A stretch of DNA of 64,000 nt, taken from assembly GCA_018819065.1 (NCBI GenBank), contig JAHJQL010000017.1, positions 35,952 to 99,951 on the forward strand, written 5' to 3'. A model generated the notes under the pieces. That model saw nothing but the letters and a program-made list of their open reading frames with translations. It was not told where the DNA came from and made no database searches. This DNA comes from Nanobdellota archaeon. GTDB lineage: Archaea; Nanobdellota; Nanobdellia; Woesearchaeales; GCA-2686295. Each line of letters begins with the position of its first letter. The stretch's first letter is position 1. Both the position numbers and the translations under genes were made by a program. Below, piece after piece: positions 22,576 to 62,404 of the stretch.

Positions 22576-22600
22576 AAAGTTTTTATATTTAAAGTTAACT
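22576..22600 (-). promoter_or_regulatory. archaeal TATA/BRE-like box upstream of the tRNA-like gene
   Basis: The minus-strand TTTAAATATAAAAAC is centred ~27 nt upstream of the putative tRNA 5' end. Confidence 0.45.
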
Positions 22601-25084: not shown

Positions 25085-25114
25085 CGTACATGTTCTTTTG
25101 AAAAATTAAAAAAA

Positions 25115-26413: not shown

Positions 26414-26567
26414 TTTTACGTACCCCCTAATTTGGTTTCTTTTTTTCTTAATGTAAAAGAAAGTTCCTCGTCGAAACCCCCTATACAAACACGAAATTAA
26501 ACAAATATATAAAGCTTTCGTTTATTTCTTCATTCATCAGTGAAAACTTTTTGTTTTTATTTTCTAG

Positions 26568-31913: not shown

Positions 31914-33439
31914 TTTCTTCTACCTCCAGGTAAATTGTTTCTGTTATGATAAGGTTTACCACCACCAAAATTATACTTCAAATCAATTGAAGTGTTCATG
32001 CTTCCATTTTTCCATCCTGGTACGTCAAATGATGGTTTGTTTTCATTTAAGTATCCTACTCCTAGTTTAAAGCCTAATTTATCAGATAAATCAACACCAA
32101 CATTTAATCCACCACCATATGATAAAGTTGTAGAATTCTTTTCATTTCTTGTTATGTGAGCATCATCAGGCAAACCATTCTTAAAATCTCTTTCATAAGT
32201 TGTATTTGTTTTGTTTCGAGTGTTTGATTGTATTCTTCCAAAGAGTCCTACAACAAAATTTTTGAATCTTTTGTAAACTCCAAGTTCTCCACCAAAACCA
32301 GATAATCGTTTGAATTCTTCTTCTCTTGAACCTTCAAAATAACCATTATTTGGAAACACTTGTTTTGTACTGTTGATGTTTTGAGGTAATGTCATAAAAG
32401 CAGTTCCTTCAATTCCATAATTATTATTAAAAGCATAACCAAGCATAACTCTTGCTTCGCTAACAGGTTTTGACCCGTTTGCAACATTCATTCCATAACC
32501 TGCACCTATTGAAATTGGAGACTTGTTAACTTTAACAAACAACGTGTCTGTATCTCCTTTAACAATGTTAGTTATTATTTTAGTTGCTGGACTGTATGTA
32601 TCCATTAGCTTTTGAAGATATACAGGATCATCTAATGCTTTTGAGATAAGATAGTTTCTCACAAATTTTTTGAAATCTTCAAAAGGAACTAATGTATCAT
32701 CATGTTCAAGTATCATGATGTGTTCTCGATCCGTGTTTTTTCCATTTTGATCTGTTGTTTTTTGTACACGTTTTTTGATGTTTGGAGCTAATGCTTTTGT
32801 AATTTTTCCAGTGTAATATATATCTTTTATATCTCCACCTTCTTTCCATTCAACACGAACACGACTTGTGTCTATTGGAATAATTTCACCTTTTGGATTT
32901 ACAATTTTTATTTTTTTTATTTGATTATTAACTTTTGCTCTTTGATTTTCAGGAACGTTGTATCCGTATAACATTTCTGAAAGAATATCTAAAGTTGTAG
33001 AATGCCATGTTTGGCTTTCCCAAGTTTTATAATCTCCTGCTTTAATTAGCATATCTATAGTTAGAGGAACATATGTTTCATTTGTAATAAAATTTTCATT
33101 AAATGGATTACTAATATCTGAGATTTTATTTGTTTTTGGATCAACGTTTGTTAATCGAGGAGTTCCATCTGTTTTTTTTATAGGTACAAATCGGTGTCTT
33201 GATTCATTATATACATTATCAGTTCCAAATATTTCATTAAGATAATCTTTGTGAGTCATATTTTTGAAGAGAAGATTGTCTAATGCTACGGAATCAATTT
33301 TAGAAGCGATAAATGTTGTATCAGATTTGATATCGTTCTGAGTAATTGTTTGTTCTATTGTGTGTTTCTTTGCTTCTTGAAGAATTTCAAAGTCTCTGAC
33401 AGCATCTGGTGAACCAATTGGAAATAAAGAATTTATCAT
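31910..33439 (-). CDS. hypothetical protein with Gly/Asn/aromatic-rich beta-strand C-terminal half, translationally coupled to the adhesin gene
   Basis: The stop overlaps the adhesin ATG (ATGA at 31910-31913). The C-terminal half shows an alternating amphipathic pattern (GAGYGMNVANG...LGYAFNNNYGIEGTAF...LGVYKRF.NFVVGLFGRIQ...LSYGGGLNVGVDLSDKLGFKLGVGYL...SIDLKYNF) reminiscent of membrane beta-barrels. No N-terminal signal peptide is visible. Confidence 0.55.
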   Translation of the reverse strand: MINSLFPIGSPDAVRDFEILQEAKKHTIEQTITQNDIKSDTTFIASKIDSVALDNLLFKNMTHKDYLNEIFGTDNVYNESRHRFVPIKKTDGTPRLTNVDPKTNKISDISNPFNENFITNETYVPLTIDMLIKAGDYKTWESQTWHSTTLDILSEMLYGYNVPENQRAKVNNQIKKIKIVNPKGEIIPIDTSRVRVEWKEGGDIKDIYYTGKITKALAPNIKKRVQKTTDQNGKNTDREHIMILEHDDTLVPFEDFKKFVRNYLISKALDDPVYLQKLMDTYSPATKIITNIVKGDTDTLFVKVNKSPISIGAGYGMNVANGSKPVSEARVMLGYAFNNNYGIEGTAFMTLPQNINSTKQVFPNNGYFEGSREEEFKRLSGFGGELGVYKRFKNFVVGLFGRIQSNTRNKTNTTYERDFKNGLPDDAHITRNEKNSTTLSYGGGLNVGVDLSDKLGFKLGVGYLNENKPSFDVPGWKNGSMNTSIDLKYNFGGGKPYHNRNNLPGGRRK

Positions 33440-33625: not shown

Positions 33626-34687
33626 ATGGATATCAAAATAATCGGTGGTGGACCTGTTGGCTGTTACTCTGCAGCCATTCTTTCAAAAAAACACAACGTG
33701 ACAATTTATGAAGAGCACAAAGAAACAGGTAAACCAATCCAGTGCACAGGAATACTCACAGACACAATAAATGAGATAATAAAACTAAAAAAAGAATTTG
33801 TGGCAAACAAGATATACGCAACGAGAGTTTATGCTCCAAACAAAGAAAACATTCGCATAAACTTCAAAAAACCAAACATAATAGTGTATAGAGATGAATT
33901 TGACAAATACTTCTTGGACAAAGCATTAAAAGGCGGAGCAAAGATAAATTACAATAATCAGTTTGTAAAAAGAGATGAAGTTTTAGACAAAATAACAAAC
34001 AAAACCACAACGATAAAATATGATTTGTTAGTTGGCGCTGATGGGCCTCTTAGCAAAGTCTCACAAACATTTGGGCTTGGAAGGAGAGATTACTTAGTTG
34101 GAGTTCAAGCAATAATTAAAAAGAAGAATGACAACGTTGTAGATTTCTATCCTCATATTGGAACTTACGCGTGGGCTGTTCCTGAATCTGAAGAAGTGTT
34201 AAGAGTTGGTGTTGCTGCAGAGAAAAACCCATTAGCCATCTTTAAAGATTTTTCAAAGAAGTATAAAGGAAAAATAATTAGTATGCAGGGAGGAATAATA
34301 CCACTTCACAAACCAAAGTTAATAACTTCAAAAGAAAAAGTATTCTTGGTTGGTGACGCTGCAGCTCAGATAAAAAACACTACTGGAGGAGGTCTTGTTC
34401 CTGGTTTGATGGCTGCAGAAGAGTTAAGCAAAGCAATCAACGAAGATAAAAATTATGAAACGCTGTGGAGAAATAGAATTGGAAGAGACCTCTTTGCACA
34501 TTACAAACTAAGAAAGATAATGAATAATTTCAAAGAAGAAGACTGGAACAAGCTAATAAAAATATTAAATGAAGATAGAATAAAAGAAGTGCTGTCAAAA
34601 GAAAGCAGAGACAAACCACTAAAAATAATAAGCAATATTTTGATTAGAAAACCCTCACTCTTAAAATTTGTCAAACAACTGTTTTAA
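33626..34687 (+). CDS. geranylgeranyl reductase-family FAD-dependent oxidoreductase
   Basis: N-terminal dinucleotide-binding IIGGGPVGCYSAAIL, plus LVGADGPLSKVS and FLVGDAAAQIKNTTGGG motifs typical of the archaeal GGR/ChlP family. Confidence 0.8.
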   Translation: MDIKIIGGGPVGCYSAAILSKKHNVTIYEEHKETGKPIQCTGILTDTINEIIKLKKEFVANKIYATRVYAPNKENIRINFKKPNIIVYRDEFDKYFLDKALKGGAKINYNNQFVKRDEVLDKITNKTTTIKYDLLVGADGPLSKVSQTFGLGRRDYLVGVQAIIKKKNDNVVDFYPHIGTYAWAVPESEEVLRVGVAAEKNPLAIFKDFSKKYKGKIISMQGGIIPLHKPKLITSKEKVFLVGDAAAQIKNTTGGGLVPGLMAAEELSKAINEDKNYETLWRNRIGRDLFAHYKLRKIMNNFKEEDWNKLIKILNEDRIKEVLSKESRDKPLKIISNILIRKPSLLKFVKQLF

Positions 34688-36069: not shown

Positions 36070-36747
36070 TCACCGCATAAACTTTCTAAAGATCATACGA
36101 AGACCTATTTTTACACTGTTTAAAGTGCTTTGACCTTTTTGTTTTGAATAATCAGAGTAAGTAATTGTGACAGGCACTTCAACAAAAGGGATTTTCTTTT
36201 TATGAATCTCTTCTACAATCTGAGACGCGTGCTCCATACGATCAGATGTTATATTAATCATCTTCGCTGCTTTTCTTGAAAAAACCCTAAAGCCATTGTG
36301 AGAGTCTGAAAGCTTAACACCATATAAGACGCGAGTGACGATTATACCTATTTTTAGGACTAACTTCCTAATAAAGGGGATTGATAAGTTTTCTTTCAAG
36401 AACCTTGAGCCAAGAGCAACCTCTACATTGTTTTTCTCAATTGATTCTAACAAAGCTTTGATGTCTTCAGGGTGATGCTGACCATCAGCATCAAAAGTCA
36501 CAATAAAGTCTGCTCCTCGTAGCAACGCGTAATCAATTCCTGTCTTTAAAGATGCACCCTGACCTCTGTTGATGAAATGCCTTAAAACAAAAACATTCTC
36601 TTTTGATGCAACTTCAAAAGTTTTATCCTTAGAACCATCATCAACAACTATTATGTTGTTATAACCATGCTTTTTTAATCCTGCTATAACTCTTGGAATT
36701 GACTTTTCCTCATTATAAGCTGCTATTACTATGTAAACCTTTTTCAT
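36070..36747 (-). CDS. GT2 glycosyltransferase, dolichyl-phosphate sugar synthase (DPM1/ArnC/AglD-like)
   Basis: ATG at 36747 (MKKVYIVIAAYNEEKSIPRVI...VVDDGSKDKT...DADGQH). Start overlaps the upstream gene stop (ATGA). Confidence 0.75.
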   Translation of the reverse strand: MKKVYIVIAAYNEEKSIPRVIAGLKKHGYNNIIVVDDGSKDKTFEVASKENVFVLRHFINRGQGASLKTGIDYALLRGADFIVTFDADGQHHPEDIKALLESIEKNNVEVALGSRFLKENLSIPFIRKLVLKIGIIVTRVLYGVKLSDSHNGFRVFSRKAAKMINITSDRMEHASQIVEEIHKKKIPFVEVPVTITYSDYSKQKGQSTLNSVKIGLRMIFRKFMR

Positions 36748-37097
36748 CTTGTTATTAAAAACACACCTGTTATTATAAGGATTATTCCAAACCATTTATA
36801 TTTATTCATGTTTTCATCCAGGAACTTAACTGAGAGCAAGGAAACCCAGATATAAGAGAAAGAAGTTATCGGGTAGACTAACGACAAACGCGCGTATTTT
36901 AAAGCCCAGACATAGAAAACTGATGAGAATAGGAATAAGAATATTCCAAATAAAAGCTCACGATTAAAAATTATCTTAAAAAAATTTTTTAATATAGTTC
37001 TGTGAAGATTAGCAGAGCCTTTCTTTAGGTAAAGAGAGCCAAAGGCGCCTATAACTGTTGCAAATATTGTTAGTGATATTGCAGATAATTCATTCAT
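36744..37097 (-). CDS. 4-TM EamA/DMT half-transporter (ArnE/ArnF-like)
   Basis: 117 aa, four hydrophobic helices, EamA-like LSLVYPITSFSYIWVSLLSVKFLDE. Confidence 0.6.
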   Translation of the reverse strand: MNELSAISLTIFATVIGAFGSLYLKKGSANLHRTILKNFFKIIFNRELLFGIFLFLFSSVFYVWALKYARLSLVYPITSFSYIWVSLLSVKFLDENMNKYKWFGIILIITGVFLITR

Positions 37098-37453
37098 TAC
37101 TTACCACCACCGCCAATAAAGCTAACACCTAAGATTATTAAAACCAATCCAAGCCAGTTAGCAAACAAAATATTTTCGCGCAGAAGGAAGAATGAAAGGA
37201 AGAATACCCATATAAAACTCAAAGCGATGAACGGGTAAAGGACTGATAACTCGCCATATTTCAAAGCAATAATCAAAATAATCGCACCTATTCCATAGAG
37301 GAAAAAACCACCTATTAACGGAAAACTTAACAAAGATAACGCGTTTCCTGAAATACTCTTAGTTCCAATCTTTATGAAGTACTGGCCAAAGGATGTAAGA
37401 AAAGTGCAAGTAATAACTAAAGCAATTGCAAAGAGAGGAGTCTTTCGCTTCAT
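37097..37453 (-). CDS. 4-TM EamA/DMT half-transporter (ArnE/ArnF-like), paired with the preceding gene
   Basis: 118 aa, GELSVLYPFIALSFIWVFFLSFFLLRE. Its stop overlaps the next gene's start by 1 nt. Confidence 0.6.
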   Translation of the reverse strand: MKRKTPLFAIALVITCTFLTSFGQYFIKIGTKSISGNALSLLSFPLIGGFFLYGIGAIILIIALKYGELSVLYPFIALSFIWVFFLSFFLLRENILFANWLGLVLIILGVSFIGGGGK

Positions 37454-37499
37454 AATGAAAAAGATAAAAAGACTATTTTAAATAGTTTCTGAAAAAAAA

Positions 37500-40361
37500 T
37501 CATATTTCTTTATTCCAGTCAACACTCCAAACAATCACTCTGTCGCCTGTCATTGATGTTTCTTCGCTGAATTTTTTGAAATGCTCAGTGTATCGTCCGT
37601 CTAAAAAGTAAAGCCTTGTGAACATTGACTGTGAAAGATAAGGACTGCTGACCATTGCGCGGTTGTTTAACTTATCATATAACACGTCTAATTGAAAATC
37701 AGAACTTTCTAATTCATACCTCTTTAATGAATCATCAGCTATTACTATATTGTTTGGTTTAGAATCTTGCTGACCTGCTAGTTGTCCGGTGTTTGGATCA
37801 ATAAATGATATGATAAAAGTGGATGCTTTTGGGTTTGAAATGTTTATCTTAACACCTGAAATAACCACTTGATGTCCTTGGTTTGAGTTGCCAAGACCAA
37901 GTCCTAAGTTGCAAAGTATAATTCCAGATTCATTTTTACAGCTACCCCAGTTAGCGCCTGCGTAGCTAGGCCAGGGAGCAATCCAGGCATTTGCTTCTTC
38001 ATCAGAAGTCAATGATTGTACCTCATAATAATAACTGGCTGCTTGGTCTTCTGTATAGTTAAATCTTTTAACTAGTATTTTTACAGCTGCATCCAAATCA
38101 TTAACATTTTTTACATTGTTATAGATAAAAGCCCTGTCAAAGTTCCAAGAACCAAAGTGAGCCCAAACACCTGCCTTGCCAACCATGTCGTTAGATGTAA
38201 TAAATAATGCTTCTGGAGGTTGGCAGTGGGTGTAGCTAAGTATTTTTTCAATAGCTGAATTATCAAATCCTATTTCCTGGAGGTAATCCTTTGCAGATTC
38301 TCTGTCTTTTTCTATAACTGCGTAGACTACATCAACTGATTTTTCAGTGTCATCATACTTTTTATCAACTTCTGTAAAAGCGTTGTTTGCGCCACAGTCA
38401 AGCATTCTTAAGATTCCAACAGCTTGGTGCTCGCTATCAGTCATTAATAGTTTTCCAACCCAGTGGGCTTGAGGAGTGTTTTGGCTTGTACCATCAAAAG
38501 TTACTGCTCTATCAGCTATTGCTTTGAAGAAGTGACCGTAATCCCACCATGAAGTTATTATTGCGCCTTTTGATGAGTTCTGCTCTATGTTTATCAATGT
38601 GTTCCACCAAGCATCGTTCATAATTGGAACGTCATTTCTGCCAATGTTATTAGCGGCTTTTACTGGTCCAATTAATAAAATCAATAATAAAACTATGAAA
38701 ATTCCTGAAGCAATTTTTCTATTAATTTTAAACTCTTTTGAGATGAAGTCTGATAGCACTGATTGTATGGTTCCAAAAGCTATTCCTAAAGCGATTGCAA
38801 ATGCTGGAACCATTAACAAGATAAACCTAACACCTTTTGTGCTTGCATAAATAGTTCCAACAAACCAAATGGTTAAAAACAACGCGTATTTTATATCAAC
38901 GTTTCTATTATCTTTAAGAAGTAATATCAAACCAATCAGCAGTGGCAACATGAACAAAGCTATGTAAATTATTGGCGACATATTAATGAAAGTTGTTGTT
39001 ATTAGTAAGAAATAAATAATTGCTCCAAGAATTATTAACAAAAAATCTTTTTTTGAAAAGTCATCTCTCTTAATCATTGTAAAAACAACCCCAAGGCATG
39101 CTATGAAGAATAGTAATTTGCCGCCATTTTGAGCAATAACTGCTGATATGGATGCAGGGTTTAACTCAGCAACTGTTGTGTAGACATTAGGCCAAAGGTT
39201 TGCGTGAGCTGCTTGTTTTATGATTGTAAAGCCCAAAGGACCTGTAAAAAACTGAATAAAATTGTTAAAACTAGTGATTAGCGTGACAAATAATCCTGAA
39301 AATGTGATGAATAAAATAAGTGCTATAGCAGGGCTTTTTATGTTGTTGTTAAAGATAGTTTTTAGGCTCTTTTTCTGAACAAGACCTTTGATTGCTGCAT
39401 AGAAAATATAGACTAATATTATACCTATTAAGAAGTCAAATATGTACCACCAGCCAGTCCAAGCAAAGCTGTATATCCCTACAAATAAGCCGCCAAGGAA
39501 TAAGTATATCAACTGTTTTTTGAAATTATCAGACTCAAAGGCTTCAAGGAAGAACCAAGCAATGAACAACGGAAATGTTACGTTGAAAGGATCAGTATCA
39601 GTAGCTCCCGCGGTTGTCCTGCCTAGGAATGATGAGTGAACAGCAACAATCATGGCAGCGACAAACCCTCCAAAGTAGCCAACCCTTTTTTTAGCTATGA
39701 AAAACGCTGGTATGACTGCAAAGACAGACATTAATATTGGGAGGAAGAAAAAATTCTTCATCACACTATTATCTGTGAATAAGCTCATGAATTTATGGTA
39801 ATAAAGACCTAAGTATAATATTAAGTTGTTTTCAGCAGGCCTACCTATTGGTGCAAACATGTGATCATCATAAGGTACACCATCTATAATTACATCTCCA
39901 TAGTGACCTTTTTCAAGAAGGTTTACAACATCTCGATAGAAGTAATAAGGGTCTATTGAACCTAAATAAGTCTGCCCTGTATCATCTTGAAAGTTTGACT
40001 TTAAGTTTTGAGATATTAAACTCACTTGATTATCAACAAGTTCTTTTTGCGACTCTAAGACTTCTGCAACCTGCTTTTCAATCAACTCGTTCTTGTTTTG
40101 AGCTGGCAGGTTTGGATACTGCTTGTTTACATCGTTTGAAACTTGATTTCTAATGGAGTTATAAACGCTGTTGTAAGCCCAATCATCAGTTACTGGCAAG
40201 TTATAAGACTGCGCCCTAACATAAACAGAGAAACTCATTGGAATAAGTATTAGCAGGATGATAAGCCAAGCGTTGTTTTTTGGTGAGCTAAGCTTTTTGA
40301 ACCAATTATTAACAGCAGTTAAGTCTATTGAGAATTCATCATCAGATTTCTTCTTAGCCAT
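37500..40361 (-). CDS. aglB: archaeal oligosaccharyltransferase AglB (STT3 family)
   Basis: Multi-TM N-terminal domain and the catalytic WWDYG motif (ITSWWDYGHFFKAIADRAVTFDGTSQN). 953 aa. Confidence 0.9.
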   Translation of the reverse strand: MAKKKSDDEFSIDLTAVNNWFKKLSSPKNNAWLIILLILIPMSFSVYVRAQSYNLPVTDDWAYNSVYNSIRNQVSNDVNKQYPNLPAQNKNELIEKQVAEVLESQKELVDNQVSLISQNLKSNFQDDTGQTYLGSIDPYYFYRDVVNLLEKGHYGDVIIDGVPYDDHMFAPIGRPAENNLILYLGLYYHKFMSLFTDNSVMKNFFFLPILMSVFAVIPAFFIAKKRVGYFGGFVAAMIVAVHSSFLGRTTAGATDTDPFNVTFPLFIAWFFLEAFESDNFKKQLIYLFLGGLFVGIYSFAWTGWWYIFDFLIGIILVYIFYAAIKGLVQKKSLKTIFNNNIKSPAIALILFITFSGLFVTLITSFNNFIQFFTGPLGFTIIKQAAHANLWPNVYTTVAELNPASISAVIAQNGGKLLFFIACLGVVFTMIKRDDFSKKDFLLIILGAIIYFLLITTTFINMSPIIYIALFMLPLLIGLILLLKDNRNVDIKYALFLTIWFVGTIYASTKGVRFILLMVPAFAIALGIAFGTIQSVLSDFISKEFKINRKIASGIFIVLLLILLIGPVKAANNIGRNDVPIMNDAWWNTLINIEQNSSKGAIITSWWDYGHFFKAIADRAVTFDGTSQNTPQAHWVGKLLMTDSEHQAVGILRMLDCGANNAFTEVDKKYDDTEKSVDVVYAVIEKDRESAKDYLQEIGFDNSAIEKILSYTHCQPPEALFITSNDMVGKAGVWAHFGSWNFDRAFIYNNVKNVNDLDAAVKILVKRFNYTEDQAASYYYEVQSLTSDEEANAWIAPWPSYAGANWGSCKNESGIILCNLGLGLGNSNQGHQVVISGVKINISNPKASTFIISFIDPNTGQLAGQQDSKPNNIVIADDSLKRYELESSDFQLDVLYDKLNNRAMVSSPYLSQSMFTRLYFLDGRYTEHFKKFSEETSMTGDRVIVWSVDWNKEI

Positions 40362-40504: not shown

Positions 40505-41791
40505 TCACCCACGATTTTTTAAAAGCCATTTCCAAACAGGCAAAATACTTATTTTTCTATTCCCAACTTTTAATTCTTCCTCTTCAGACATTGTTAATAT
40601 TAAAAGATTGTCGCATGAAAATTCTTTGCTTGCTAGCAGCAATGATCTTATTTCTCTGTCTCTTGTTTCAAAATTGGATATATCATAGCAGACCTGAATG
40701 AGTTCTTCTATTTTTTTGCCACTTTTTATTACAAAATCCACTTCGTTTTTAGTGGCGTTTTGGTAATATGCCGTGTCTTTATTTCTCCTGAGCAATTCAA
40801 CAAAAACCATGTTTTCCAGCAATCTTCCCTTATCATCTACGAAATTTATGCGCAACAGTCCGTTATCTATAAAATAAATTTTCGGAATTGATTGCTCTGA
40901 TTTCTTATATGATAATGAGAATTTATTTAGCATAAAAATAAAGAATGAGTCTTCCAAGTAGCCAAGGTAGTTGTATATTGCGTCTTTGCTGGACTTTATC
41001 TGTTGAGACTTTAAGTAATTATAAAATTTATTGGCTGAAAATTCTTTAGAAATCAATAACGCTCTCATCATTGTCTTCATCAAAAAGATATTTCTTATCT
41101 TGTGCCTTTCAATAATGTCTCTTAATATTGCTGTATCAAAAATATCTCTTAGTATCTTTTCTCTTTCTGTTGAGTAAAGTGCCACTTCAGGGTATCCTCC
41201 AAAATTCAAGTACTCATCAAAATAGTTCAGGATTATGCCTTCTTCTTTTGAAGATAGAAATTTAGGCACATTAAATGACTTAAAGGTTAAGAACTCTTTG
41301 AAAGATAATGGTAATATGTTGTATGTTAGGCTTCTTCCTCTCATGCTGGTTGCTAACTCTTTGCTTAAAAGCTTGGATGATGAACCTGTTATTATTACCT
41401 TGATTTTTTGATCAATGCATGTTCTTACAAACAATTCCCAATTTACTACATTCTGTATTTCATCAAGAAATAACCATAATTCCTCTTTCTTGTTTTTAGG
41501 AAAGATCTGCTGGTACGCTTCAAGCAATAATGAAAGATCTTTTGAATTTATTACTCCCAGGTCTCCACGCTCAAAATTTATGTAGATTGTTTTATCTTTG
41601 CCGTTTTTTTTTGCAACTTCTTCTGTAAGCATCAACATTTCAGAAGTTTTGCCTGCCCTTCTTGGTCCTATTAGAGAATAAGCTCTGTTTATGTTCAAGT
41701 CCAAAGGTATGTTTATGTGTCTTGATATTAAATTTTTGGGAGATGATTCGTTCCAGTCTTTTATAATTTTAATCCAATATTGCACATCCAT
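40505..41791 (-). CDS. AAA+ ATPase of the COG1373 / AAA_14-DUF4143 family
   Basis: Walker A GPRRAGKTS, Walker B LFLDEIQ, and the C-terminal DUF4143-like region common in archaea. Confidence 0.7.
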   Translation of the reverse strand: MDVQYWIKIIKDWNESSPKNLISRHINIPLDLNINRAYSLIGPRRAGKTSEMLMLTEEVAKKNGKDKTIYINFERGDLGVINSKDLSLLLEAYQQIFPKNKKEELWLFLDEIQNVVNWELFVRTCIDQKIKVIITGSSSKLLSKELATSMRGRSLTYNILPLSFKEFLTFKSFNVPKFLSSKEEGIILNYFDEYLNFGGYPEVALYSTEREKILRDIFDTAILRDIIERHKIRNIFLMKTMMRALLISKEFSANKFYNYLKSQQIKSSKDAIYNYLGYLEDSFFIFMLNKFSLSYKKSEQSIPKIYFIDNGLLRINFVDDKGRLLENMVFVELLRRNKDTAYYQNATKNEVDFVIKSGKKIEELIQVCYDISNFETRDREIRSLLLASKEFSCDNLLILTMSEEEELKVGNRKISILPVWKWLLKNRG

Positions 41792-41947: not shown

Positions 41948-43708
41948 TTAGTCCAAAGCAAGTTTTTCACTGTCCCAAACATCTTTTTGGTTGTCTTCTC
42001 TTTTGATTAAGAATTTATCAATCACTAAATAATCTATGCCTGTACCCATCATACACTTGTAAGCATCAAATGGTGTGCATACGATTGGCTCGCCTCTGAT
42101 GTTAAAGGATGTGTTTATCAGTATTGGAATGCTTGAGAGTTCTCCAAACTTCTTGATTAAATTATAGTATAAATGGTTTTGTTCTCGCCTAATAGTCTGC
42201 AAGCGCCCACTGCCATCAACGTGAGTTACTGAAGGTATTTTTTTGTGCCATTCTTTTTTTATTGGGTAAACCATTAACATATAATCAGTTGGTGCGGGGA
42301 TTGGGTTATCACACTCAAAGTATGTTAATGCATCATCTTCACAAACAACTGGTGCAAAAGGCCTAAATTTTTCCCTGTGCTTGACTTTCTCATTTAACAA
42401 CTGCTTTGCTTTTGGATTGCAAGGGTTTGCCAAGATGCTTCTGTTACCAAGTGCTCTTGGTCCCCACTCCATTCTGCCTTGAAACCACCCAACAACCTTG
42501 TTTTCAAAGATTAACTTAGCAGTTTGTTCTATTAAGTCAGATTCATCTTTGAAAGTTGAGTATTTTACCTTATTTTTGTCTAAGAAAACCTTTATCTCTT
42601 TTGTTGAAAATTCAGGCCCTAAAGATGCGTTTTTGAAAGGAAAAACTCTTTTATGACTAAGAATTGAGTGGTATATGTAAGCTGCAACTCCAATACTCGT
42701 TCCCCCATCTGAGGCGTTTGGCTGCATCCAAACATCTTTAAAAGGTGTGTTTTTGAGTATTTTGCCGTTGAAAACGCTGTTTAAGCCAACACCGCCAGAA
42801 AGAACTAATTTTTCACAGTTTGTAGCTTGATAAACATAGTTTAACATTCTTGTCATGACTTCTTCAGTTACTAATTGAAGGGCTGCAGCGATGTCTTTAT
42901 GTCTCTTTGTCATCTCAGATCCTTTCTTTGTAATTGGTCCTCCTAACAAATCACATAGTTTCTTTGAAGGCATCCTGTCAGAGTAGTGGTATTTGAAGTA
43001 AGACATGTCAAACCTGTAGCTGCCATCAGATTTTATATCAATGACTTTTCTTAGTTTTTTGTAATAAGGATTTGTTTTTTTATTCATGTCACCGTATGCT
43101 GAAAGACCCATGACCCGATACTCTGAATTATTCACACTCATTCCAAGATACGCCGTTATTGTTGAGTATAATAGTCCAATTGAGTGTGGAAACCTTATTT
43201 CTTTGAACAAGTGGATTTTGTTGTTTTCCCCAACGCCATAAGCTGTTGTTGTCCACTCACCAACGCCATCAACTGTTAAAATAGCTGCTTTTTCAAATGG
43301 GCTGACTAAAAACGTGCTTGCGGCGTGGGCTAAGTGGTGCTCTATGAATAATACGTCACCTTTGTATTTTAGCTTTTTTCTAATGACAGATGTAATCCTT
43401 AGCTTTTCATTCATCCAAGAAGGCATAAAGCTTAAGAAAGCCTTAAAGCTTTTTGGAAACATTTCTAAGTGCGAAGATATCATCCTCTCAAACTTCAGCA
43501 TCGGCTTTTCGTAAAAGCCAATGTAATCAACCTTGTTTACGCTGATTTTTTGATCTTTTAAGCAATATTCAATTGCATTTATCGGAAATGAGTTATCATG
43601 CTTTTTTCTAGTAAAACGCTCCTCTTCTGCAGCTGCAACTATTACTCCATCTTTAAGTAGCGCAGCTGATGAGTCGTGGTAATAACAACTCATTCCAAGT
43701 ACGTACAT
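41948..43708 (-). CDS. carbamoyltransferase (NodU/CmcH family)
   Basis: N-terminal GMSCYYHDSSAALLKDGVIVAAAEEERFTRKKHD, typical of NodU/CmcH/TobZ-type carbamoyltransferases. 586 aa. Confidence 0.85.
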   Translation of the reverse strand: MYVLGMSCYYHDSSAALLKDGVIVAAAEEERFTRKKHDNSFPINAIEYCLKDQKISVNKVDYIGFYEKPMLKFERMISSHLEMFPKSFKAFLSFMPSWMNEKLRITSVIRKKLKYKGDVLFIEHHLAHAASTFLVSPFEKAAILTVDGVGEWTTTAYGVGENNKIHLFKEIRFPHSIGLLYSTITAYLGMSVNNSEYRVMGLSAYGDMNKKTNPYYKKLRKVIDIKSDGSYRFDMSYFKYHYSDRMPSKKLCDLLGGPITKKGSEMTKRHKDIAAALQLVTEEVMTRMLNYVYQATNCEKLVLSGGVGLNSVFNGKILKNTPFKDVWMQPNASDGGTSIGVAAYIYHSILSHKRVFPFKNASLGPEFSTKEIKVFLDKNKVKYSTFKDESDLIEQTAKLIFENKVVGWFQGRMEWGPRALGNRSILANPCNPKAKQLLNEKVKHREKFRPFAPVVCEDDALTYFECDNPIPAPTDYMLMVYPIKKEWHKKIPSVTHVDGSGRLQTIRREQNHLYYNLIKKFGELSSIPILINTSFNIRGEPIVCTPFDAYKCMMGTGIDYLVIDKFLIKREDNQKDVWDSEKLALD

Positions 43709-43722
43709 TTTTATTTTCCCCC

Positions 43723-43983
43723 CTAAAAAGTTCTGTAATATTTTTCAATGTCTTTTTCTTTTAAGTCCAAATCATTCCAGTAAGACTTCTTTTTCTTATT
43801 CACCTTTAAATCTAAAAAATGTTTTTTGAAAACCTTTGCGAATATGGACGTTAAACCAACACCTACAAAGTAAACGATTGAAAGTAATAACGAATTAATA
43901 ATAACACTCACATCATGTCCAAAATCCATAAATCCTTCTTTAAAGCCTAAGAAGAAGTCTTTAATCAAACTCATCTCAGCCAC
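43723..43983 (-). CDS. small membrane protein
   Basis: 86 aa, one or two TM helices. It is in an operon position between the 75-aa membrane protein and the carbamoyltransferase. Confidence 0.4.
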   Translation of the reverse strand: MAEMSLIKDFFLGFKEGFMDFGHDVSVIINSLLLSIVYFVGVGLTSIFAKVFKKHFLDLKVNKKKKSYWNDLDLKEKDIEKYYRTF

Positions 43984-44198
43984 CTTCTCAGCATAACACC
44001 AATTAATGTTATTAAAAGAGTAAACAGTATAACATAAAAGAAAGACGAGCCAAACACAATCTTTTTAGAAAAAACCAGTACAAAGTATATAATTGTTGAA
44101 AACAACAAGTAAGCAGATAAAAAGCCGACTTTTTCACCAAAGCTAAAAACAAAATTGTTATTTTCAAAATCCATGAAGCAGAAGGAAAAACCACTCAT
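43971..44198 (-). CDS. small membrane protein
   Basis: 75 aa with two hydrophobic helices. It overlaps the downstream gene by 13 nt. Confidence 0.4.
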   Translation of the reverse strand: MSGFSFCFMDFENNNFVFSFGEKVGFLSAYLLFSTIIYFVLVFSKKIVFGSSFFYVILFTLLITLIGVMLRRWLR

Positions 44199-44250: not shown

Positions 44251-44583
44251 TTGATGCAAATAATACAAATAATAGGAATACTATTCGCACTATTTGCGTA
44301 TAGCAGGACTATCCTAAGATTTAAAGACAAGAGAATTACAGCAAAAGAGTTCTTGTTCTGGACAATAGTGTGGGTGGGTGTGATAATTGTTGCAATAATT
44401 CCTGGAGTTATGAGTGGGCTGTCAAGATTTTTAGGAATAGGAAGACCAATCGATATAATCGTCTACGCAAGCATAATAATCTTGTTTTACTTGATATTTC
44501 GAATTTATGTTAAAATCGAAGATGTTGAGCAAAACATCACAAAGATAGTTAGAGAAACTGCAATTAGAAGAAAGAAAAAATGA
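44251..44583 (+). CDS. DUF2304-like small membrane protein
   Basis: 110 aa, 3 TM helices plus a basic tail, a family usually adjacent to glycosyltransferases. Its stop overlaps the GT4 start. Confidence 0.5.
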   Translation: MMQIIQIIGILFALFAYSRTILRFKDKRITAKEFLFWTIVWVGVIIVAIIPGVMSGLSRFLGIGRPIDIIVYASIIILFYLIFRIYVKIEDVEQNITKIVRETAIRRKKK

Positions 44584-45713: not shown

Positions 45714-46273
45714 TGAAAGAAGAGATAAAAAAACAATTTGATGAACACATAACTGCTGTTAAGGACAATTTTGATTTGGCTGAAAAAGTTGAGAACGCTT
45801 CAAGGTTGATTATAGATGCACTTAAAAACGAGAAAAAGATTCTTATCTGCGGCAACGGCGGAAGCGCAGCAGATGCCCAGCACATAGCTGCAGAGTTAAT
45901 GGGTAAGTATGAAAAGATGAGACCAGCACTTGCTGCAGTGGCGCTGACAACAGATACAAACATGCTCACTGCTTGGAGCAACGATGACTGTTATGAAAAC
46001 GTGTTTTCAAGACAAGTCGAAGGACTTGGCGCTAAAGGAGATGTTTTAATTGGAATAAGCACATCTGGAAACTCGGAGAATATCATAAGAGCAATGACTG
46101 CTGCTAAGAAAAAAGGATTAAAAACAATCTCTTTCATTGGAAAAGACGGGGGAAATATGAAAGGACTTGCAGATGTTGAGATACACATAAAACATGACCG
46201 GACGTCAAGGGTGCAGGAGGTTCAAGAATTATGTTATCATATAATGTGCGGAGCTGTGGAGAACGCTTTTTAG
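45713..46273 (+). CDS. gmhA: sedoheptulose-7-phosphate isomerase (SIS domain)
   Basis: ILICGNGGSAADAQHIAAEL, GISTSGNSENI. 186 aa. Confidence 0.85.
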   Translation: MKEEIKKQFDEHITAVKDNFDLAEKVENASRLIIDALKNEKKILICGNGGSAADAQHIAAELMGKYEKMRPALAAVALTTDTNMLTAWSNDDCYENVFSRQVEGLGAKGDVLIGISTSGNSENIIRAMTAAKKKGLKTISFIGKDGGNMKGLADVEIHIKHDRTSRVQEVQELCYHIMCGAVENAF

Positions 46274-46310
46274 TTAACTATTTATATTCTTTTTAATTCT
46301 TAAAAAAAAG

Positions 46311-60913: not shown

Positions 60914-62404
60914 TTGATGAACAAGCTCACTAGAACAACAATTCAGCTTTTCATAATTAGTCTTTTTATTGGGCTAATCAATTATCTTTTAAGGATTGTA
61001 TTTGCCAGGAACTTAACTTTGGAGGAGTATGGTTTGTTCTATGCTGTTTTCGCACTTGTTTCCTTCTTTGCTCCTTTTAGGGATTTGGGTCTTGGCGAGT
61101 CTACCTTGTTTTTCATTAATAAATATGTTGTCAAGTCTGACAAGAAGAGAATCAAAGCATCTATAGTTATTGGTATTCTTCCTCAGCTCATTCTTGGAAT
61201 AGTCATTGCAGCAATTCTCTTCTTGCTTAAGGGTTACTTGGTTAAAAACTATTTCAAGAATCCCTTAGCAGACCCAATAATGACTATTTTAATCATCCTT
61301 TTTGCTTTTGAGACTATAAGGCCTACTTTGATATATCTCTTCTTAGCTTATCAAAAAGTTGCTTTAAGCAAGTTAAACGACTTGATTTGTTCTCTATCTA
61401 TATTAATAGTTTCAATAATACTATTTTCTTTTTCATCATCATCAAAAACAACAGTTCCAGCAATAGCTTACTTAATAGGATCAGTTGTAGCAATAGTCAT
61501 ATTTGGAATCATTTTTTACACTCAATTTAAAGATGTCATCAAAGAGAAAGCAGCCATAAACAAAGCGTTAATAAAAGAGATGTTTAATTATGCTATTCCA
61601 ATTATGTTTTCCACGGCTGGAGCTATGATTTTAGTCTACAGCGACACATTATTATTAACTTATTTTAAGGGTGTGGAGTTAGTTGGATTATATAACATCG
61701 CGTACCCTGCTTTAGGAGTTATATTAATTTTTATAACGCCAATAAGCATAATTCTTTTCCCAAAGATATCTAACCTTTACCATCAAAAGAAGTCTCAAGA
61801 CATAAAAAACATTTTAAGCATAATATACAACAATTTCTTGCTCTTAACAATTCCTTTGGGACTTGCATTCTTTGTTTACTCTGATTTAATTATTTCTTTG
61901 CTCTTTGGAGTAAAATACATAGGTGCAACTAACACGTTAAAGGTTTTCTCATTAGCATTCATATTCATAGGTATAAGAGATATCAACTTTAACATAATCG
62001 CAGGTATTGGAAAAGTCAAGGAGCGCTCAAAGATACTCTACTATGGCGCAGGATTCAACGTAATACTAGACTTAATCTTAATTCCAAAATACGGTGCAAG
62101 TGGAGCTGCAATTGCAACAGGCCTCGGATTTGCATTAATGGCTTACCTAACAACAAAACTAATCTTAAAAGAATACCCAATCCACATCGAAAAGTTCATC
62201 CAGTTAAAAACAGTATTCTCAGGACTATTATTCCTTGCTTCATTAAGTCTGCTTAAAAAAATAATTGTTATGAGCAACGCAATAATAGAAGCAATAATTG
62301 TCTGCACAATTTCAGGAATAATTTATGTACTCGCACTATACTTATTAAAAGTTGTAACTAAAGAGAAAATACTGTTTTTAAAAGAATTAGTTTTGAAAGA
62401 ATGA
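60914..62404 (+). CDS. wzx: polysaccharide/oligosaccharide flippase (Wzx, MOP/MATE-like superfamily)
   Basis: 496 aa with ~12-14 predicted TM helices, a typical Wzx topology, in a glycan gene cluster. Confidence 0.75.
   Translation: MMNKLTRTTIQLFIISLFIGLINYLLRIVFARNLTLEEYGLFYAVFALVSFFAPFRDLGLGESTLFFINKYVVKSDKKRIKASIVIGILPQLILGIVIAAILFLLKGYLVKNYFKNPLADPIMTILIILFAFETIRPTLIYLFLAYQKVALSKLNDLICSLSILIVSIILFSFSSSSKTTVPAIAYLIGSVVAIVIFGIIFYTQFKDVIKEKAAINKALIKEMFNYAIPIMFSTAGAMILVYSDTLLLTYFKGVELVGLYNIAYPALGVILIFITPISIILFPKISNLYHQKKSQDIKNILSIIYNNFLLLTIPLGLAFFVYSDLIISLLFGVKYIGATNTLKVFSLAFIFIGIRDINFNIIAGIGKVKERSKILYYGAGFNVILDLILIPKYGASGAAIATGLGFALMAYLTTKLILKEYPIHIEKFIQLKTVFSGLLFLASLSLLKKIIVMSNAIIEAIIVCTISGIIYVLALYLLKVVTKEKILFLKELVLKE

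What the first reader, a model, noticed from the sequence alone, without database searches (positions are those of the whole stretch)
36070..40361. aglB operon with Dol-P-sugar synthase and a pair of 4-TM EamA half-transporters (ArnC/ArnE/ArnF-like)
The minus-strand order aglB - 4TM - 4TM - GT2 is tightly coupled by 1- and 4-nt overlaps. It mirrors the bacterial arnC/arnE/arnF logic, in which a lipid-phosphate monosaccharide is made and then flipped by a heterodimeric SMR-like flippase. Here it is attached to the archaeal oligosaccharyltransferase. This would be a candidate dolichol-phosphate-sugar flippase for archaeal N-glycosylation, a step whose machinery is poorly defined.
Basis: inference. 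Interest (0 to 1): 0.55.

Follow-up and report, generated by a model that had tools for sequence, protein, structure and literature searches.

The report
ArnE/ArnF-like lipid-sugar flippase module beside aglB
Next to the N-glycosylation enzyme AglB, a Woesearchaeota (DPANN) archaeon carries three tightly coupled genes, a lipid-phosphate-sugar synthase and two small membrane proteins related to bacterial ArnE/ArnF, which most likely make a dolichol-phosphate sugar and flip it to the cell surface; it is an archaeal version of a known bacterial design, and its link to AglB is local rather than conserved.

Summary
All four ORFs are real and lie at the stated coordinates. The 1-nt and 4-nt overlaps join only 4TM-A/4TM-B/GT2. 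aglB is separated by 46 nt that hold a T8 run and a TATA-like box, so the three-gene unit probably has its own promoter.

- **Small proteins:** both are EamA-type paralogues. They are homologous to E. coli ArnE (hhalign 97.9% and 97.0%) and much less similar to EmrE. The 4TM-A model has an SMR-protomer fold. The two carry opposite K/R biases in 69 of 76 pairs, as ArnF/ArnE do, which implies an antiparallel heterodimer.
- **GT2:** it is a short, TM-less polyprenyl-phosphate glycosyltransferase. Its best profile is PpgS, and its closest solved relatives are DPMS, ArnC and GtrB. A DUF2304 gene (the GacJ/Rv3632-type activator family) lies 7.5 kb away.
- **Linkage in 80 related loci:** the pair is almost always kept. 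A GT2 is enriched next to it (odds ratio 5.7; 14 at the +1 position), in several different arrangements, some with a PMT_2 GT-C enzyme. AglB is not enriched (p = 1). About a quarter of loci instead show secD-secF-pair-pyrH.

Verdict: this is a plausible Dol-P-monosaccharide synthase plus flippase module and a new archaeal member of a known kind. "aglB operon" overstates the link. Function is inferred, not shown.

The parts
37097..37453 (-). 4TM-A: first subunit of the small EamA/ArnE-like pair (118 aa). K/R bias is positive on the N-terminus/loop 2/C-terminus side, as in ArnF.
   Evidence: Pfam EamA 2.5e-7. NCBIfam ArnE 5.7e-8, below the curated cutoff. Family profile versus E. coli ArnE: 97.9%, E 3.2e-13, 103 columns. 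AlphaFold model pLDDT 89 with four TM helices. The top 8 PDB fold hits are all SMR protomers (EmrE TM-score 0.72/0.82, Gdx-Clo). K/R bias.
36744..37097 (-). 4TM-B: second subunit, a paralogue of 4TM-A (117 aa). K/R bias is strongly positive in loops 1 and 3, as in ArnE.
   Evidence: Pfam EamA 6.2e-12 and TMEM234 1.4e-7 (32.0 bits, cutoff 30.1). NCBIfam ArnF 3.2e-9 and ArnE 4.5e-9. Family versus ArnE 97.0%, E 8e-11; versus ArnF 82.5%. Paralogy to 4TM-A: 100%, E 5e-42. It shares 1 nt (TAATG) with 4TM-A.
36070..36747 (-). Short soluble GT2 (225 aa from Met17; an alternative ATG lies at 36795): a predicted dolichyl-phosphate HexNAc (or hexose) synthase of the PpgS/GacI type.
   Evidence: PF00535 1.7e-26. 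NCBIfam PpgS 4.6e-59, full length, 199.6 bits against a cutoff of 370; AglJ 3e-27; ArnC 1.7e-12. PDB: PfDPMS 5mlz 1.3e-16, ArnC, GtrB. No TM helix. DDGS and DAD motifs are visible in the translation. ATGA overlap with 4TM-B.
37475..37499 (-). aglB/4TM-A spacer elements: a T8 run immediately after the aglB stop (37492-37499) and a TATA-like TTTAAAAT (37475-37482) about 26 nt before the 4TM-A ATG.
   Evidence: Read from the sequence. A similar promoter-like element precedes the orthologous gene in L003 and L008, and a T8 run follows aglB in L008. Promoter and terminator function is inferred, not shown.
37500..40361 (-). AglB/STT3 oligosaccharyltransferase (953 aa): an adjacent gene on the same strand, probably a separate transcript.
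   Evidence: PF02516 1.9e-43 and STT3-PglB core 3.1e-5. WWDYG at residue 605 and 10 strongly hydrophobic segments. Directly upstream of the pair only here and in L008.
44251..44583 (+). DUF2304 small membrane protein (110 aa, 3 TM): a likely GacJ/Rv3632-type activator partner of the GT2, encoded 7.5 kb away at the head of the plus-strand glycan cluster.
   Evidence: PF10066 2.6e-28. In L020, L038, L079, L026 and L043 a DUF2304 gene lies directly beside the orthologous GT2. GacJ stimulates GacI and Rv3632 stimulates PpgS (bioRxiv 10.1101/180810).
60914..62404 (+). Wzx/MOP-family flippase (496 aa). This is context: a separate candidate for flipping the lipid-linked oligosaccharide.
   Evidence: Polysacc_synt 1e-27 and MurJ 1.3e-11. 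MOP flippase models in NCBIfam. 10 hydrophobic segments.
33626..34687 (+). Geranylgeranyl-reductase-family flavoprotein convergent on the GT2. This is context: a conserved neighbour and possibly a polyprenyl/dolichol saturase.
   Evidence: TIGR02032 156.2 bits against a cutoff of 158.8. The same family lies within 5 genes downstream of the pair, on the opposite strand, in 12 related loci as well as the window.

Best explanation
The functional unit is the three-gene cassette 4TM-A/4TM-B/GT2, which probably has its own leaderless promoter.

1. The GT2 is a short, TM-less PpgS/GacI-type enzyme. It transfers a single sugar, most likely a HexNAc, from a nucleotide sugar to dolichyl phosphate on the cytoplasmic face. 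The DUF2304 protein at 44251-44583 probably assists it.
2. The two 4-TM proteins assemble into an antiparallel heterodimer with the SMR protomer fold and are homologous to ArnE/ArnF. They move the Dol-P-sugar headgroup to the outer leaflet by facilitated diffusion. They lack the TM1 glutamate that proton-coupled SMR pumps use.
3. Outside the cell, a GT-C enzyme uses the flipped lipid as a donor to decorate a surface glycan or protein. In relatives this enzyme is a PMT_2 protein. Here it is unknown, and AglB is the only GT-C enzyme nearby.

Shown here: gene anatomy, homology, fold, charge bias and conserved linkage. Inferred: the substrate, the flipping activity and the acceptor.
For: - **Coupling.** The overlaps are TAATG and ATGA. 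E. coli arnE/arnF also share 1 nt.
- **Homology.** NCBIfam's best hits for both small proteins are ArnE/ArnF. hhalign to E. coli ArnE gives 97.9% and 97.0%, full length. EmrE gives 56-66% and only partial coverage. TM1 carries the GQxxxK motif seen in ArnE and has no glutamate.
- **Fold.** The AlphaFold model of 4TM-A has pLDDT 89, and its top 8 PDB matches are EmrE and Gdx-Clo protomers with TM-scores of about 0.7-0.8.
- **Topology.** The first gene has a mean K/R bias of +2.45 (70 of 76 positive). The second has -5.96 (75 of 76 negative). The signs are opposite in 69 of 76 pairs. E. coli ArnF (+3) and ArnE (-7) show the same split. Paired SMRs behave this way (PMC9574504).
- **GT2.** The PpgS profile matches full length. 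The closest solved relatives (PfDPMS, ArnC, GtrB) are all polyprenyl-phosphate glycosyltransferases.
- **Linkage.** A GT2 lies within two genes of the pair for 30 of 292 neighbouring ORFs, against 10 of 506 in the background (OR 5.7, p 6e-7). At +1 it is 17 of 76 (OR 14, p 5e-10). The arrangements differ: +1 on the same strand; convergent with DUF2304; at -1; a single 4TM gene beside AglJ-like GT2s in four bacterial phyla; 4TM-GT2-PMT_2 in L050; and an arn-like sugar-amination operon in L088. A PMT_2 GT-C gene lies within 3 genes in 7 close relatives.
Against: - There is no biochemical evidence for any member of this subfamily.
- NCBIfam scores are far below the ArnE/ArnF and PpgS equivalog cutoffs.
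- In roughly a quarter of the loci the pair sits in a housekeeping context, secD-secF-pair-pyrH. pyrH at +1 (19 loci) is as frequent as GT2 at +1 (17 loci).
- On a crude NJ tree the GT2 context is concentrated in derived clades, so the enrichment p-values overstate independence.
- No PMT_2-type acceptor transferase was found in the 64-kb window or in the flanks read beyond it: about 3.5 kb to the contig end on one side, and about 9 kb on a contig from another sample on the other side.
- The sugar identity rests only on the nearest profile.
Confidence: 0.55

Rival explanations
1. The GT2 is an AglK/AglJ-type initiating enzyme that puts the first sugar of the N-glycan on dolichyl monophosphate. 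The 4-TM pair then flips this Dol-P-linked mono- or short oligosaccharide directly for AglB. The block would then be a minimal N-glycosylation pathway.
For: - aglB is immediately upstream here and in L008. AglB lies within 8 kb in L003, L009, L013, L020 and L038 and within 4 kb in L083.
- AglJ is the second-best NCBIfam hit for the GT2.
- Euryarchaeal AglB uses Dol-P-linked glycans that are started by GT2 enzymes AglK/AglJ (PMC5222938).
- No AglH/GPT-type initiating enzyme and no other GT-C enzyme were found in the window.
Against: - AglB is not enriched near the pair (p = 1).
- The spacer has terminator-like and promoter-like elements.
- Close relatives carry PMT_2 rather than AglB at that position.
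- The window has GT4, GT9 and GT2 elongating enzymes and a Wzx flippase, which fits a conventional oligosaccharide route.
- The best GT2 profile (PpgS) and the DUF2304 partner both belong to side-chain donor systems.
Confidence: 0.15
2. The pair is an ordinary small EamA/DMT-type transporter for a soluble metabolite, for example a pyrimidine- or nucleotide-related compound in a host-dependent DPANN cell. Its position beside the GT2 reflects genome compaction rather than shared function.
For: - pyrH is tightly packed downstream of the pair in 19 loci. dCTP deaminase or CTP synthase genes lie nearby in some loci, and secDF lies upstream in 33 ORF positions.
- Databases name the family only 'EamA family transporter' or 'multidrug transporter'.
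- Makarova et al. 2015 classed short archaeal EamA proteins as transporters with no context clues (PMC5898192).
- P0094's locus shows a glycogen-gene context.
Against: - The nearest characterised relatives are the glycolipid flippases ArnE/ArnF, not solute carriers.
- GT2 linkage recurs in at least five arrangements and in distant bacterial phyla, including complete 4TM-GT2-GT-C and arn-like operons.
- The proteins have no TM1 carboxylate for coupled transport.
Confidence: 0.2
3. The pair recycles the carrier lipid. It would flip free dolichyl phosphate back to the cytoplasmic face after glycan transfer, doing the job that DedA and DUF368 proteins do in bacteria.
For: The pair is conserved like a core gene in Woesearchaeota, whether or not a GT2 lies beside it. 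Carrier recycling would be needed by every lipid-linked pathway, including AglB's.
Against: The pair has no homology to the known polyprenyl-phosphate transporters. Its closest characterised relatives flip the sugar-loaded lipid outward. Translational coupling to the synthase fits product export better.
Confidence: 0.05
4. The pair is an SMR-type proton-coupled exporter of drugs or cations, like EmrE or EbrAB.
For: The proteins share the 4-TM protomer fold of EmrE and Gdx. There is a weak EbrA hit (1.5e-3). Some sources annotate relatives as 'EmrE-like'.
Against: No PF00893 hit was obtained. hhalign to EmrE covers only part of the protein at 56-66%. The essential TM1 glutamate is absent.
Confidence: 0.03

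Closest known systems
ArnE/ArnF (PmrL/PmrM) undecaprenyl-phosphate-L-Ara4N flippase with ArnC and ArnT (E. coli/Salmonella)
   Same: Two adjacent genes of about 110-130 aa and 4 TM helices that share 1 nt. Both are in the EamA Pfam family. They are homologous at 97-98% hhalign probability. The two subunits have opposite K/R bias. Neither has a TM1 glutamate. Both are linked to a polyprenyl-phosphate GT2 and, in relatives of this archaeon, to a PMT_2 GT-C transferase.
   Different: - The host is archaeal, so the carrier is presumably dolichol rather than undecaprenol.
- Scores are far below the equivalog cutoffs (37 versus 92-99 bits).
- Both archaeal subunits resemble ArnE more than ArnF.
- The subunit with positive bias comes first here and second in E. 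coli.
- The GT2 is a short TM-less PpgS-like enzyme, not ArnC.
- There are no Ara4N biosynthesis genes.
GacI/GacJ/GacK/GacL (Streptococcus pyogenes) and PpgS/Rv3632/Rv3779 (Mycobacterium): three-component extracytoplasmic HexNAc decoration systems
   Same: A short GT2 makes polyprenyl-P-HexNAc, and PpgS is the best profile for the window's GT2. A DUF2304 small membrane partner is present in the window and lies beside the GT2 in five related loci. The logic is the same: flip the lipid-linked sugar, then let a GT-C enzyme transfer it.
   Different: The proposed flippase there is a Wzx protein (GacK) or is unidentified. Here it is an ArnE/F-like 4-TM pair. The acceptor here is unknown. The GT2 score is below the PpgS cutoff (199.6 versus 370 bits).
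Haloferax volcanii AglD/AglR/AglS branch (Dol-P-Man made inside, used outside to finish the N-glycan)
   Same: A Dol-P-monosaccharide donor is needed on the outer face of an archaeal membrane near an AglB pathway. The translocator for this step is still described as unidentified (PMC12992685).
   Different: AglR is a Wzx/MOP-type protein, and the window has its own MOP homologue at 60914-62404. No sequence relation to the 4-TM pair exists. The comparison rests partly on my own knowledge of the Agl pathway.
Short archaeal EamA proteins arCOG03427/arCOG03426 (COG2510) of Makarova, Galperin and Koonin 2015
   Same: These are short 4-5 TM EamA-family proteins in archaea, predicted to be transporters (PMC5898192).
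   Different: That study found no informative genomic context. Membership of the window proteins in those arCOGs was not tested here. The DPANN loci supply the context (GT2, DUF2304, PMT_2) that was missing.
Eukaryotic TMEM234 (PF10639), an orphan DMT-clan protein
   Same: 4TM-B passes the Pfam gathering score for TMEM234 (32.0 versus 30.1 bits). 18 of 20 4TM-B family members match it.
   Different: The EamA match is stronger. TMEM234 has no known function (PMC9333335). No direct alignment to a eukaryotic sequence was made here.

Membership tests
ArnE/ArnF-type (EamA/SMR-like) polyprenyl-phosphate-sugar flippase | Protein of about 110-130 aa with four TM helices and the SMR protomer fold | tested here: met
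   The proteins are 118 and 117 aa. The AlphaFold model of 4TM-A has pLDDT 89 with helices at 7-32, 44-66, 69-90 and 97-116. The top 8 PDB fold hits are EmrE and Gdx protomers with TM-scores of about 0.7-0.8.
ArnE/ArnF-type (EamA/SMR-like) polyprenyl-phosphate-sugar flippase | Sequence homology to ArnE/ArnF at family level | tested here: met
   hhalign against E. coli ArnE gives 97.9% (E 3e-13) for 4TM-A and 97.0% (E 8e-11) for 4TM-B, both full length. Against ArnF it gives 82.5%. The control against EmrE gives 56-66% with partial coverage.
ArnE/ArnF-type (EamA/SMR-like) polyprenyl-phosphate-sugar flippase | Scores above the curated equivalog cutoffs (the same function as E. coli ArnE/ArnF) | tested here: not met
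   The scores are 32.9-37.3 bits against cutoffs of 92 and 99. The proteins are homologues, not equivalogs, so the substrate is not expected to be Ara4N.
ArnE/ArnF-type (EamA/SMR-like) polyprenyl-phosphate-sugar flippase | Two adjacent paralogous genes encoding subunits of opposite membrane orientation (a heterodimer) | tested here: met
   The genes share 1 nt. They are paralogues (E 5e-42). K/R bias is +2.45 versus -5.96, with opposite signs in 69 of 76 pairs. ArnF is +3 and ArnE is -7. Orientation is inferred from the positive-inside rule and was not measured.
ArnE/ArnF-type (EamA/SMR-like) polyprenyl-phosphate-sugar flippase | Genomic linkage to a polyprenyl-phosphate GT2 and a GT-C transferase | tested here: met
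   The GT2 is translationally coupled here. GT2 is enriched near the pair (OR 5.7, and 14 at +1). PMT_2 GT-C genes are present in 7 close relatives and in L050. In the window itself the only GT-C enzyme is AglB.
ArnE/ArnF-type (EamA/SMR-like) polyprenyl-phosphate-sugar flippase | Transbilayer movement of a polyprenyl-phosphate sugar | not testable with these tools
   This needs reconstitution or genetic complementation.
SMR drug/guanidinium exporters (PF00893; EmrE, Gdx, EbrAB) | Conserved membrane-embedded TM1 glutamate (Glu14 of EmrE) and a match to the SMR profile | tested here: not met
   No PF00893 hit was obtained. TM1 of both families has no conserved acidic residue (alignments). The hhalign match to EmrE excludes TM1.
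PpgS/GacI-type polyprenyl-phosphate HexNAc synthase (short GT2) | GT-A GT2 domain with a DxD motif, about 225-230 aa, no TM segment, full-length match to the family profile | tested here: met
   PF00535 1.7e-26. The PpgS profile aligns residues 4-224 to model positions 2-225 of 226. DDGS and DAD motifs are present. The protein has 0 TM segments. PDB relatives are DPMS, ArnC and GtrB.
PpgS/GacI-type polyprenyl-phosphate HexNAc synthase (short GT2) | Score above the PpgS equivalog cutoff, or a demonstrated HexNAc product | tested here: not met
   The score is 199.6 bits against a cutoff of 370. The product sugar cannot be tested with these tools.
PpgS/GacI-type polyprenyl-phosphate HexNAc synthase (short GT2) | A DUF2304 (GacJ/Rv3632) small membrane partner | tested here: met
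   A DUF2304 gene lies at 44251-44583 (2.6e-28), though 7.5 kb away. It is directly adjacent to the orthologous GT2 in L020, L038, L079, L026 and L043. The role of the partner comes from bioRxiv 10.1101/180810.
AglB/STT3 oligosaccharyltransferase | STT3 N-terminal multi-TM domain, core domain and WWDYG motif | tested here: met
   PF02516 1.9e-43 and PF21436 3.1e-5. WWDYG lies at residue 605.
Single aglB operon containing the flippase and synthase | Co-transcription with aglB, and conservation of the four-gene block | tested here: not met
   The 46-nt spacer has a T8 run and a TATA-like box. The four-gene block occurs in only 1 of 80 related loci (L008). AglB is not enriched near the pair (p = 1). 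Transcription itself was not measured.

The most novel reading that the evidence does not exclude
The 4-TM EamA/TMEM234-like antiparallel pairs, which form at least 4,570 protein clusters and are annotated only as 'EamA family transporter', could be the general dolichyl-phosphate-monosaccharide flippases of archaea. Their eukaryotic relative TMEM234 could then be the long-sought ER scramblase for Dol-P-Man or Dol-P-Glc. In this DPANN genome the pair could even feed a Dol-P-linked sugar directly to the adjacent AglB.
Probability: 0.08. Interest if true: 0.85.

Novelty: new member of a known kind. Interest (0 to 1): 0.48.

Why it matters
The proteins that move dolichyl-phosphate monosaccharides across membranes are still unidentified in archaea (PMC12992685). 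Candidate lists exist for eukaryotes but no assignment (bioRxiv 10.1101/209106). Short archaeal EamA proteins were previously left as 'transporter, no context clues' (PMC5898192).

This locus and its relatives supply that missing context: translational coupling to a polyprenyl-phosphate GT2, DUF2304 partners and PMT_2 GT-C neighbours. That gives a concrete and easily cloned candidate of about 120 aa per subunit for complementation and reconstitution tests. It would also give the first functional handle on a very large, unannotated family that overlaps the orphan human TMEM234 family. If the prediction fails, the family is simply another small-solute carrier.

Tried and rejected
- **Whole block as one aglB operon.** Rejected because of the spacer anatomy and the lack of AglB enrichment.
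- **Recurrent ~570-590-aa upstream gene.** I suspected it was the window's carbamoyltransferase or a GT-C enzyme. It is SecD/SecF.
- **Recurrent ~228-aa downstream gene.** I suspected a divergent GT2 or isopentenyl phosphate kinase, which would have linked it to lipids. It is archaeal UMP kinase PyrH, above the curated cutoff.
- **PMT_2-type acceptor transferase in this genome.** I searched the window and the flanks beyond it. None was found. The 141.7-kb contig ends 3.5 kb past the window at a transposase gene.
- **265-aa gene beside the pair in Bryobacterales.** I expected a Ppm1-like synthase. It is signal peptidase I, next to ManC.
- **P0094 context (glycogen genes).** Uninformative.
- **Sequence search of the PDB with the pair.** Gave only marginal hits: NIPA2 at 0.003 and EmrE at about 0.7.
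- **Literature.** Searches found no paper that describes these DPANN pairs as flippases.
- **Not attempted.** A heterodimer structure prediction (single-chain tool only), arCOG assignment, and a direct alignment to a eukaryotic TMEM234 sequence.

Full report
**Source and observation**

The window comes from a Woesearchaeota/Nanoarchaeota (DPANN) metagenome-assembled genome. The small proteins are found with 100% identity in records named 'Nanoarchaeota archaeon', and the contig is 141.7 kb long.

- AglB, 37500-40361
- 4TM-A, 37097-37453
- 4TM-B, 36744-37097
- GT2, 36070-36747 (an alternative start lies at 36795)

Reading the junctions confirms a TAATG junction (1 nt shared) between the two small genes. 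It also confirms an ATGA junction (4 nt) between 4TM-B and the GT2, provided the GT2 starts at Met17. That start is where the Pfam and NCBIfam alignments begin.

aglB is not part of this coupled block. After its stop codon come eight Ts, then CAGAAAC-TATTTAAAATA, then 20 nt, then the 4TM-A ATG. The TATA-like box is centred about 26 nt before the ATG, which is the geometry of an archaeal promoter for a leaderless mRNA. The same GAAACTATTTAAAT element precedes the orthologous gene in L003, where the upstream neighbour is a divergently transcribed PMT_2 gene. In L008 a T8 run again follows aglB, and a TATA-like box again sits about 28 nt before the ATG. I infer that 4TM-A/4TM-B/GT2 is its own transcription unit. 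This was not measured.

**What the proteins are**

AglB is a normal STT3-family oligosaccharyltransferase (PF02516 1.9e-43; WWDYG at residue 605).

Both small proteins pass the Pfam EamA threshold, and neither hits the SMR family PF00893. In NCBIfam their best matches are ArnF and ArnE (E 3e-9 to 6e-8). These scores are well below the equivalog cutoffs.

I fetched E. coli arnE/arnF, which also share one nucleotide, and compared them with family alignments built from homologues:
- 4TM-A family versus ArnE: 97.9% probability, E 3e-13, 103 of 111 columns
- 4TM-B family versus ArnE: 97.0%, E 8e-11
- 4TM-B family versus ArnF: 82.5%
- 4TM-A versus 4TM-B: clear paralogues, E 5e-42
- Control, EmrE: only 56-66% over TM2-4 or TM3-4

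TM1 carries a GQxxxK motif shared with ArnE and has no acidic residue. The Tyr of the conserved LYP/AYP motif aligns with the EmrE Tyr60 'switch'. This matches the description of the lipid-type SMRs in the review PMC9574504.

An AlphaFold model of 4TM-A is confident (pLDDT 89). Its eight best PDB matches are all EmrE or Gdx-Clo protomers (TM-scores of about 0.7-0.8, rmsd 2.2-2.7 A for the best). No closer solved structure exists by sequence.

**Topology**

I examined 76 gene pairs from related loci.
- The first gene carries its Lys/Arg on the N-terminus, loop 2 and C-terminus side (mean bias +2.45; 70 of 76 positive).
- The second gene carries them in loops 1 and 3 (mean -5.96; 75 of 76 negative).
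- The signs are opposite in 69 of 76 pairs.

E. coli ArnF (+3) and ArnE (-7) split the same way. By the positive-inside rule this predicts an antiparallel heterodimer, the arrangement of paired SMR transporters.

**The GT2**

It is 225 aa with no TM helix and has DDGS and DAD motifs. Its best profile is mycobacterial PpgS, the polyprenyl-phospho-GalNAc synthase. That match is full length at 199.6 bits, below the cutoff of 370. AglJ, a haloarchaeal Dol-P-hexose transferase and ArnC follow. Its closest solved relatives are Pyrococcus Dol-P-Man synthase, ArnC and GtrB, all of which are polyprenyl-phosphate glycosyltransferases.

PpgS and its streptococcal counterpart GacI are stimulated by small DUF2304 membrane proteins, Rv3632 and GacJ (bioRxiv 10.1101/180810). 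The window has a DUF2304 gene at 44251-44583. In L020, L038, L079, L026 and L043 a DUF2304 gene lies directly beside the orthologous GT2.

**Conservation of the linkage**

A genome-collection scan found 560 loci that encode a relative of 4TM-A, and the best 80 were fetched. They are mostly DPANN, but also include Bryobacterales, Fraserbacteria, Deltaproteobacteria and Bacillota.

The pair, in the same order, is present in 75 of the 80 loci. Four bacterial loci carry a single gene, and one locus is cut by its contig end.

Neighbour genes were called, clustered and searched with HMMs:
- A GT2 lies within two genes of the pair for 30 of 292 ORFs, against 10 of 506 further away (OR 5.7, p 6e-7).
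- At position +1 the figure is 17 of 76 (OR 14, p 5e-10).
- AglB shows no enrichment (2 of 292 versus 4 of 506, p = 1).
- The four-gene block of the window recurs only in L008.

The GT2 link appears in several distinct arrangements:
- directly downstream and overlapping (the window clade, plus L017, L026, L041, L043 and L056)
- convergent, with DUF2304 (L020, L038, L079)
- upstream (L030, L033, L035)
- a single 4-TM gene next to AglJ-like GT2s in four bacterial phyla (L050, L069, L073, L075)
- a complete 4TM-GT2-PMT_2 operon in L050
- an arn-like operon, GT2/aminotransferase/dehydratase/kinase/4TM pair, in L088

Seven close relatives of the window have a PMT_2 GT-C glycosyltransferase, the family that contains ArnT, within three genes upstream.

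**Evidence that cuts the other way**

About a quarter of the loci show secD-secF-pair-pyrH instead, with pyrH packed as tightly as the GT2 is here. On a crude NJ tree this housekeeping context forms the basal grade, and the glycosylation context is concentrated in derived clades. The p-values above therefore overstate independence. I cannot exclude that the two contexts represent paralogues with different roles.

In Bryobacterales the pair sits beside signal peptidase I and ManC. No PMT_2-type transferase was found in the window or in the flanks beyond it.

**Surroundings**

The region from 44 to 64 kb is a large glycan-biosynthesis cluster. It holds:
- DUF2304
- GT4 enzymes
- GmhA and HldE (ADP-heptose synthesis)
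- two GT9 heptosyltransferases
- two B12-radical-SAM enzymes
- several methyltransferases
- a GT2
- a Wzx/MOP flippase at 60914-62404
- sugar epimerases/dehydratases

Large Ig-like/cadherin-like surface proteins lie at 22.6-33.4 kb. The locus therefore already has a conventional candidate for flipping the lipid-linked oligosaccharide. That leaves the 4-TM pair to handle a different lipid-linked species.

**Mechanism I consider most likely (confidence about 0.55)**

1. The GT2, probably with DUF2304, loads one sugar onto dolichyl phosphate at the inner face. A HexNAc is most likely, judging by the nearest profile.
2. The antiparallel 4TM-A/4TM-B heterodimer lets the phosphosugar headgroup cross while the polyprenyl tail stays in the bilayer. 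Movement is driven by consumption outside the cell and not by protons, because the coupling glutamate is absent.
3. A GT-C enzyme uses the flipped donor on a surface glycan or protein.

This is the ArnC/ArnEF/ArnT and GacI-J/K/L logic transplanted into an archaeon. It parallels the Haloferax AglD/AglR/AglS branch, whose translocator a 2026 paper still calls unidentified (PMC12992685).

Rivals, in order:
- a soluble-metabolite EamA transporter (0.2)
- an AglK/AglJ-like initiation step whose product is flipped straight to AglB (0.15; AglK/AglJ background from PMC5222938)
- Dol-P recycling (0.05)
- SMR drug efflux (0.03)

**Novelty**

The kind of system is known: an ArnE/F-type 4-TM glycolipid flippase coupled to a polyprenyl-phosphate GT2. 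The archaeal/DPANN members are not described as such in the literature I could search. Databases call them 'EamA family transporter' or 'multidrug transporter'. Makarova et al. 2015 listed short archaeal EamA proteins as transporters without context clues. I therefore rate this a new member of a known kind.

The family is large: at least 4,570 clusters reached E <= 1e-3 among the 8,000 candidates scored. 18 of 20 4TM-B-type members also match the orphan eukaryotic TMEM234 family. That overlap is the basis for the low-probability, high-interest reading that these proteins are the general Dol-P-monosaccharide flippases.

Noticed in passing
window 45713-47756, 51511-52467, 54973-56127: A complete-looking ADP-heptose branch lies in a DPANN archaeon. 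It comprises GmhA (TIGR00441 211 bits, above cutoff), bifunctional HldE (both domain models above cutoff) and two GT9 heptosyltransferases. This is chemistry typical of the bacterial LPS core. It sits in a stretch where GC falls to 23-30% (50-60 kb), which suggests a horizontally acquired glycan island.
   Followed up: partly
window 52455-54014 and 56751-58268 (with methyltransferases at 54014-54970, 56084-56758, 58273-59157, 59914-60615): Two B12-binding radical-SAM enzymes are interleaved with four SAM methyltransferases inside the glycan cluster. This suggests unusual C-methylated or otherwise modified sugars.
   Followed up: no
window 41948-43708, 43723-43983, 43971-44198; L008, L010: A NodU-like O-carbamoyltransferase (PF02543/PF16861; NodU 1e-50) lies upstream with small TM proteins of 86 and 75 aa. 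In L008 and L010 the carbamoyltransferase and an ~84-aa homologue of the 86-aa protein lie upstream of the 4-TM pair in the same order. This could mean the sugar is carbamoylated.
   Followed up: partly
window 40505-41791: An AAA_14/DUF4143 ATPase gene sits between the carbamoyltransferase and aglB. It is absent from the otherwise syntenic L008, so it looks like an insertion.
   Followed up: partly
window 33626-34687; 12 related loci (e.g. L002-L010): A geranylgeranyl-reductase-family flavoprotein (TIGR02032 156.2 versus cutoff 158.8) lies convergent on the GT2. The same family lies within 5 genes downstream of the pair, on the opposite strand, in 12 related loci. It could saturate dolichol or membrane lipids.
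   Followed up: partly
L011, L012, L015, L021, L025, L028, L029, L034, L039, L048, L055, L057, L068, L083 and others: Many other Woesearchaeota show a conserved, tightly packed secD-secF-4TM-4TM-pyrH arrangement. In Bryobacterales the pair lies beside signal peptidase I and ManC. The recurring association with protein-export genes is unexplained.
   Followed up: partly
window 47763-49103: A Schlafen AlbA_2 + HATPase_c_4 + DeoR-HTH protein is embedded in the middle of the glycan cluster. It may be a regulator or a defence-related gene.
   Followed up: no
window 22595-33439: This stretch is a run of large predicted surface proteins. They are a 1781-aa protein with 12 Big_9/cadherin-like repeats plus PKD domains (26568-31913), Ig-like proteins of 829 and 457 aa, and a 509-aa protein with a weak beta-barrel-like hit. 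They are probable glycoprotein substrates or adhesins of the episymbiont.
   Followed up: no
L081 7162-8766; L045 9697-11136: L081 carries two tandem copies of the 4-TM pair. L045 has extra partial 4-TM hits downstream. Lineage-specific duplications of the pair therefore exist.
   Followed up: no
L093 69-932 (end of the 141.7-kb source contig, about 3.5 kb past the window end): An rve-family integrase/transposase gene lies at the contig end, just beyond the glycan cluster. This is consistent with the cluster being mobile or sitting at an assembly break in a repeat.
   Followed up: no
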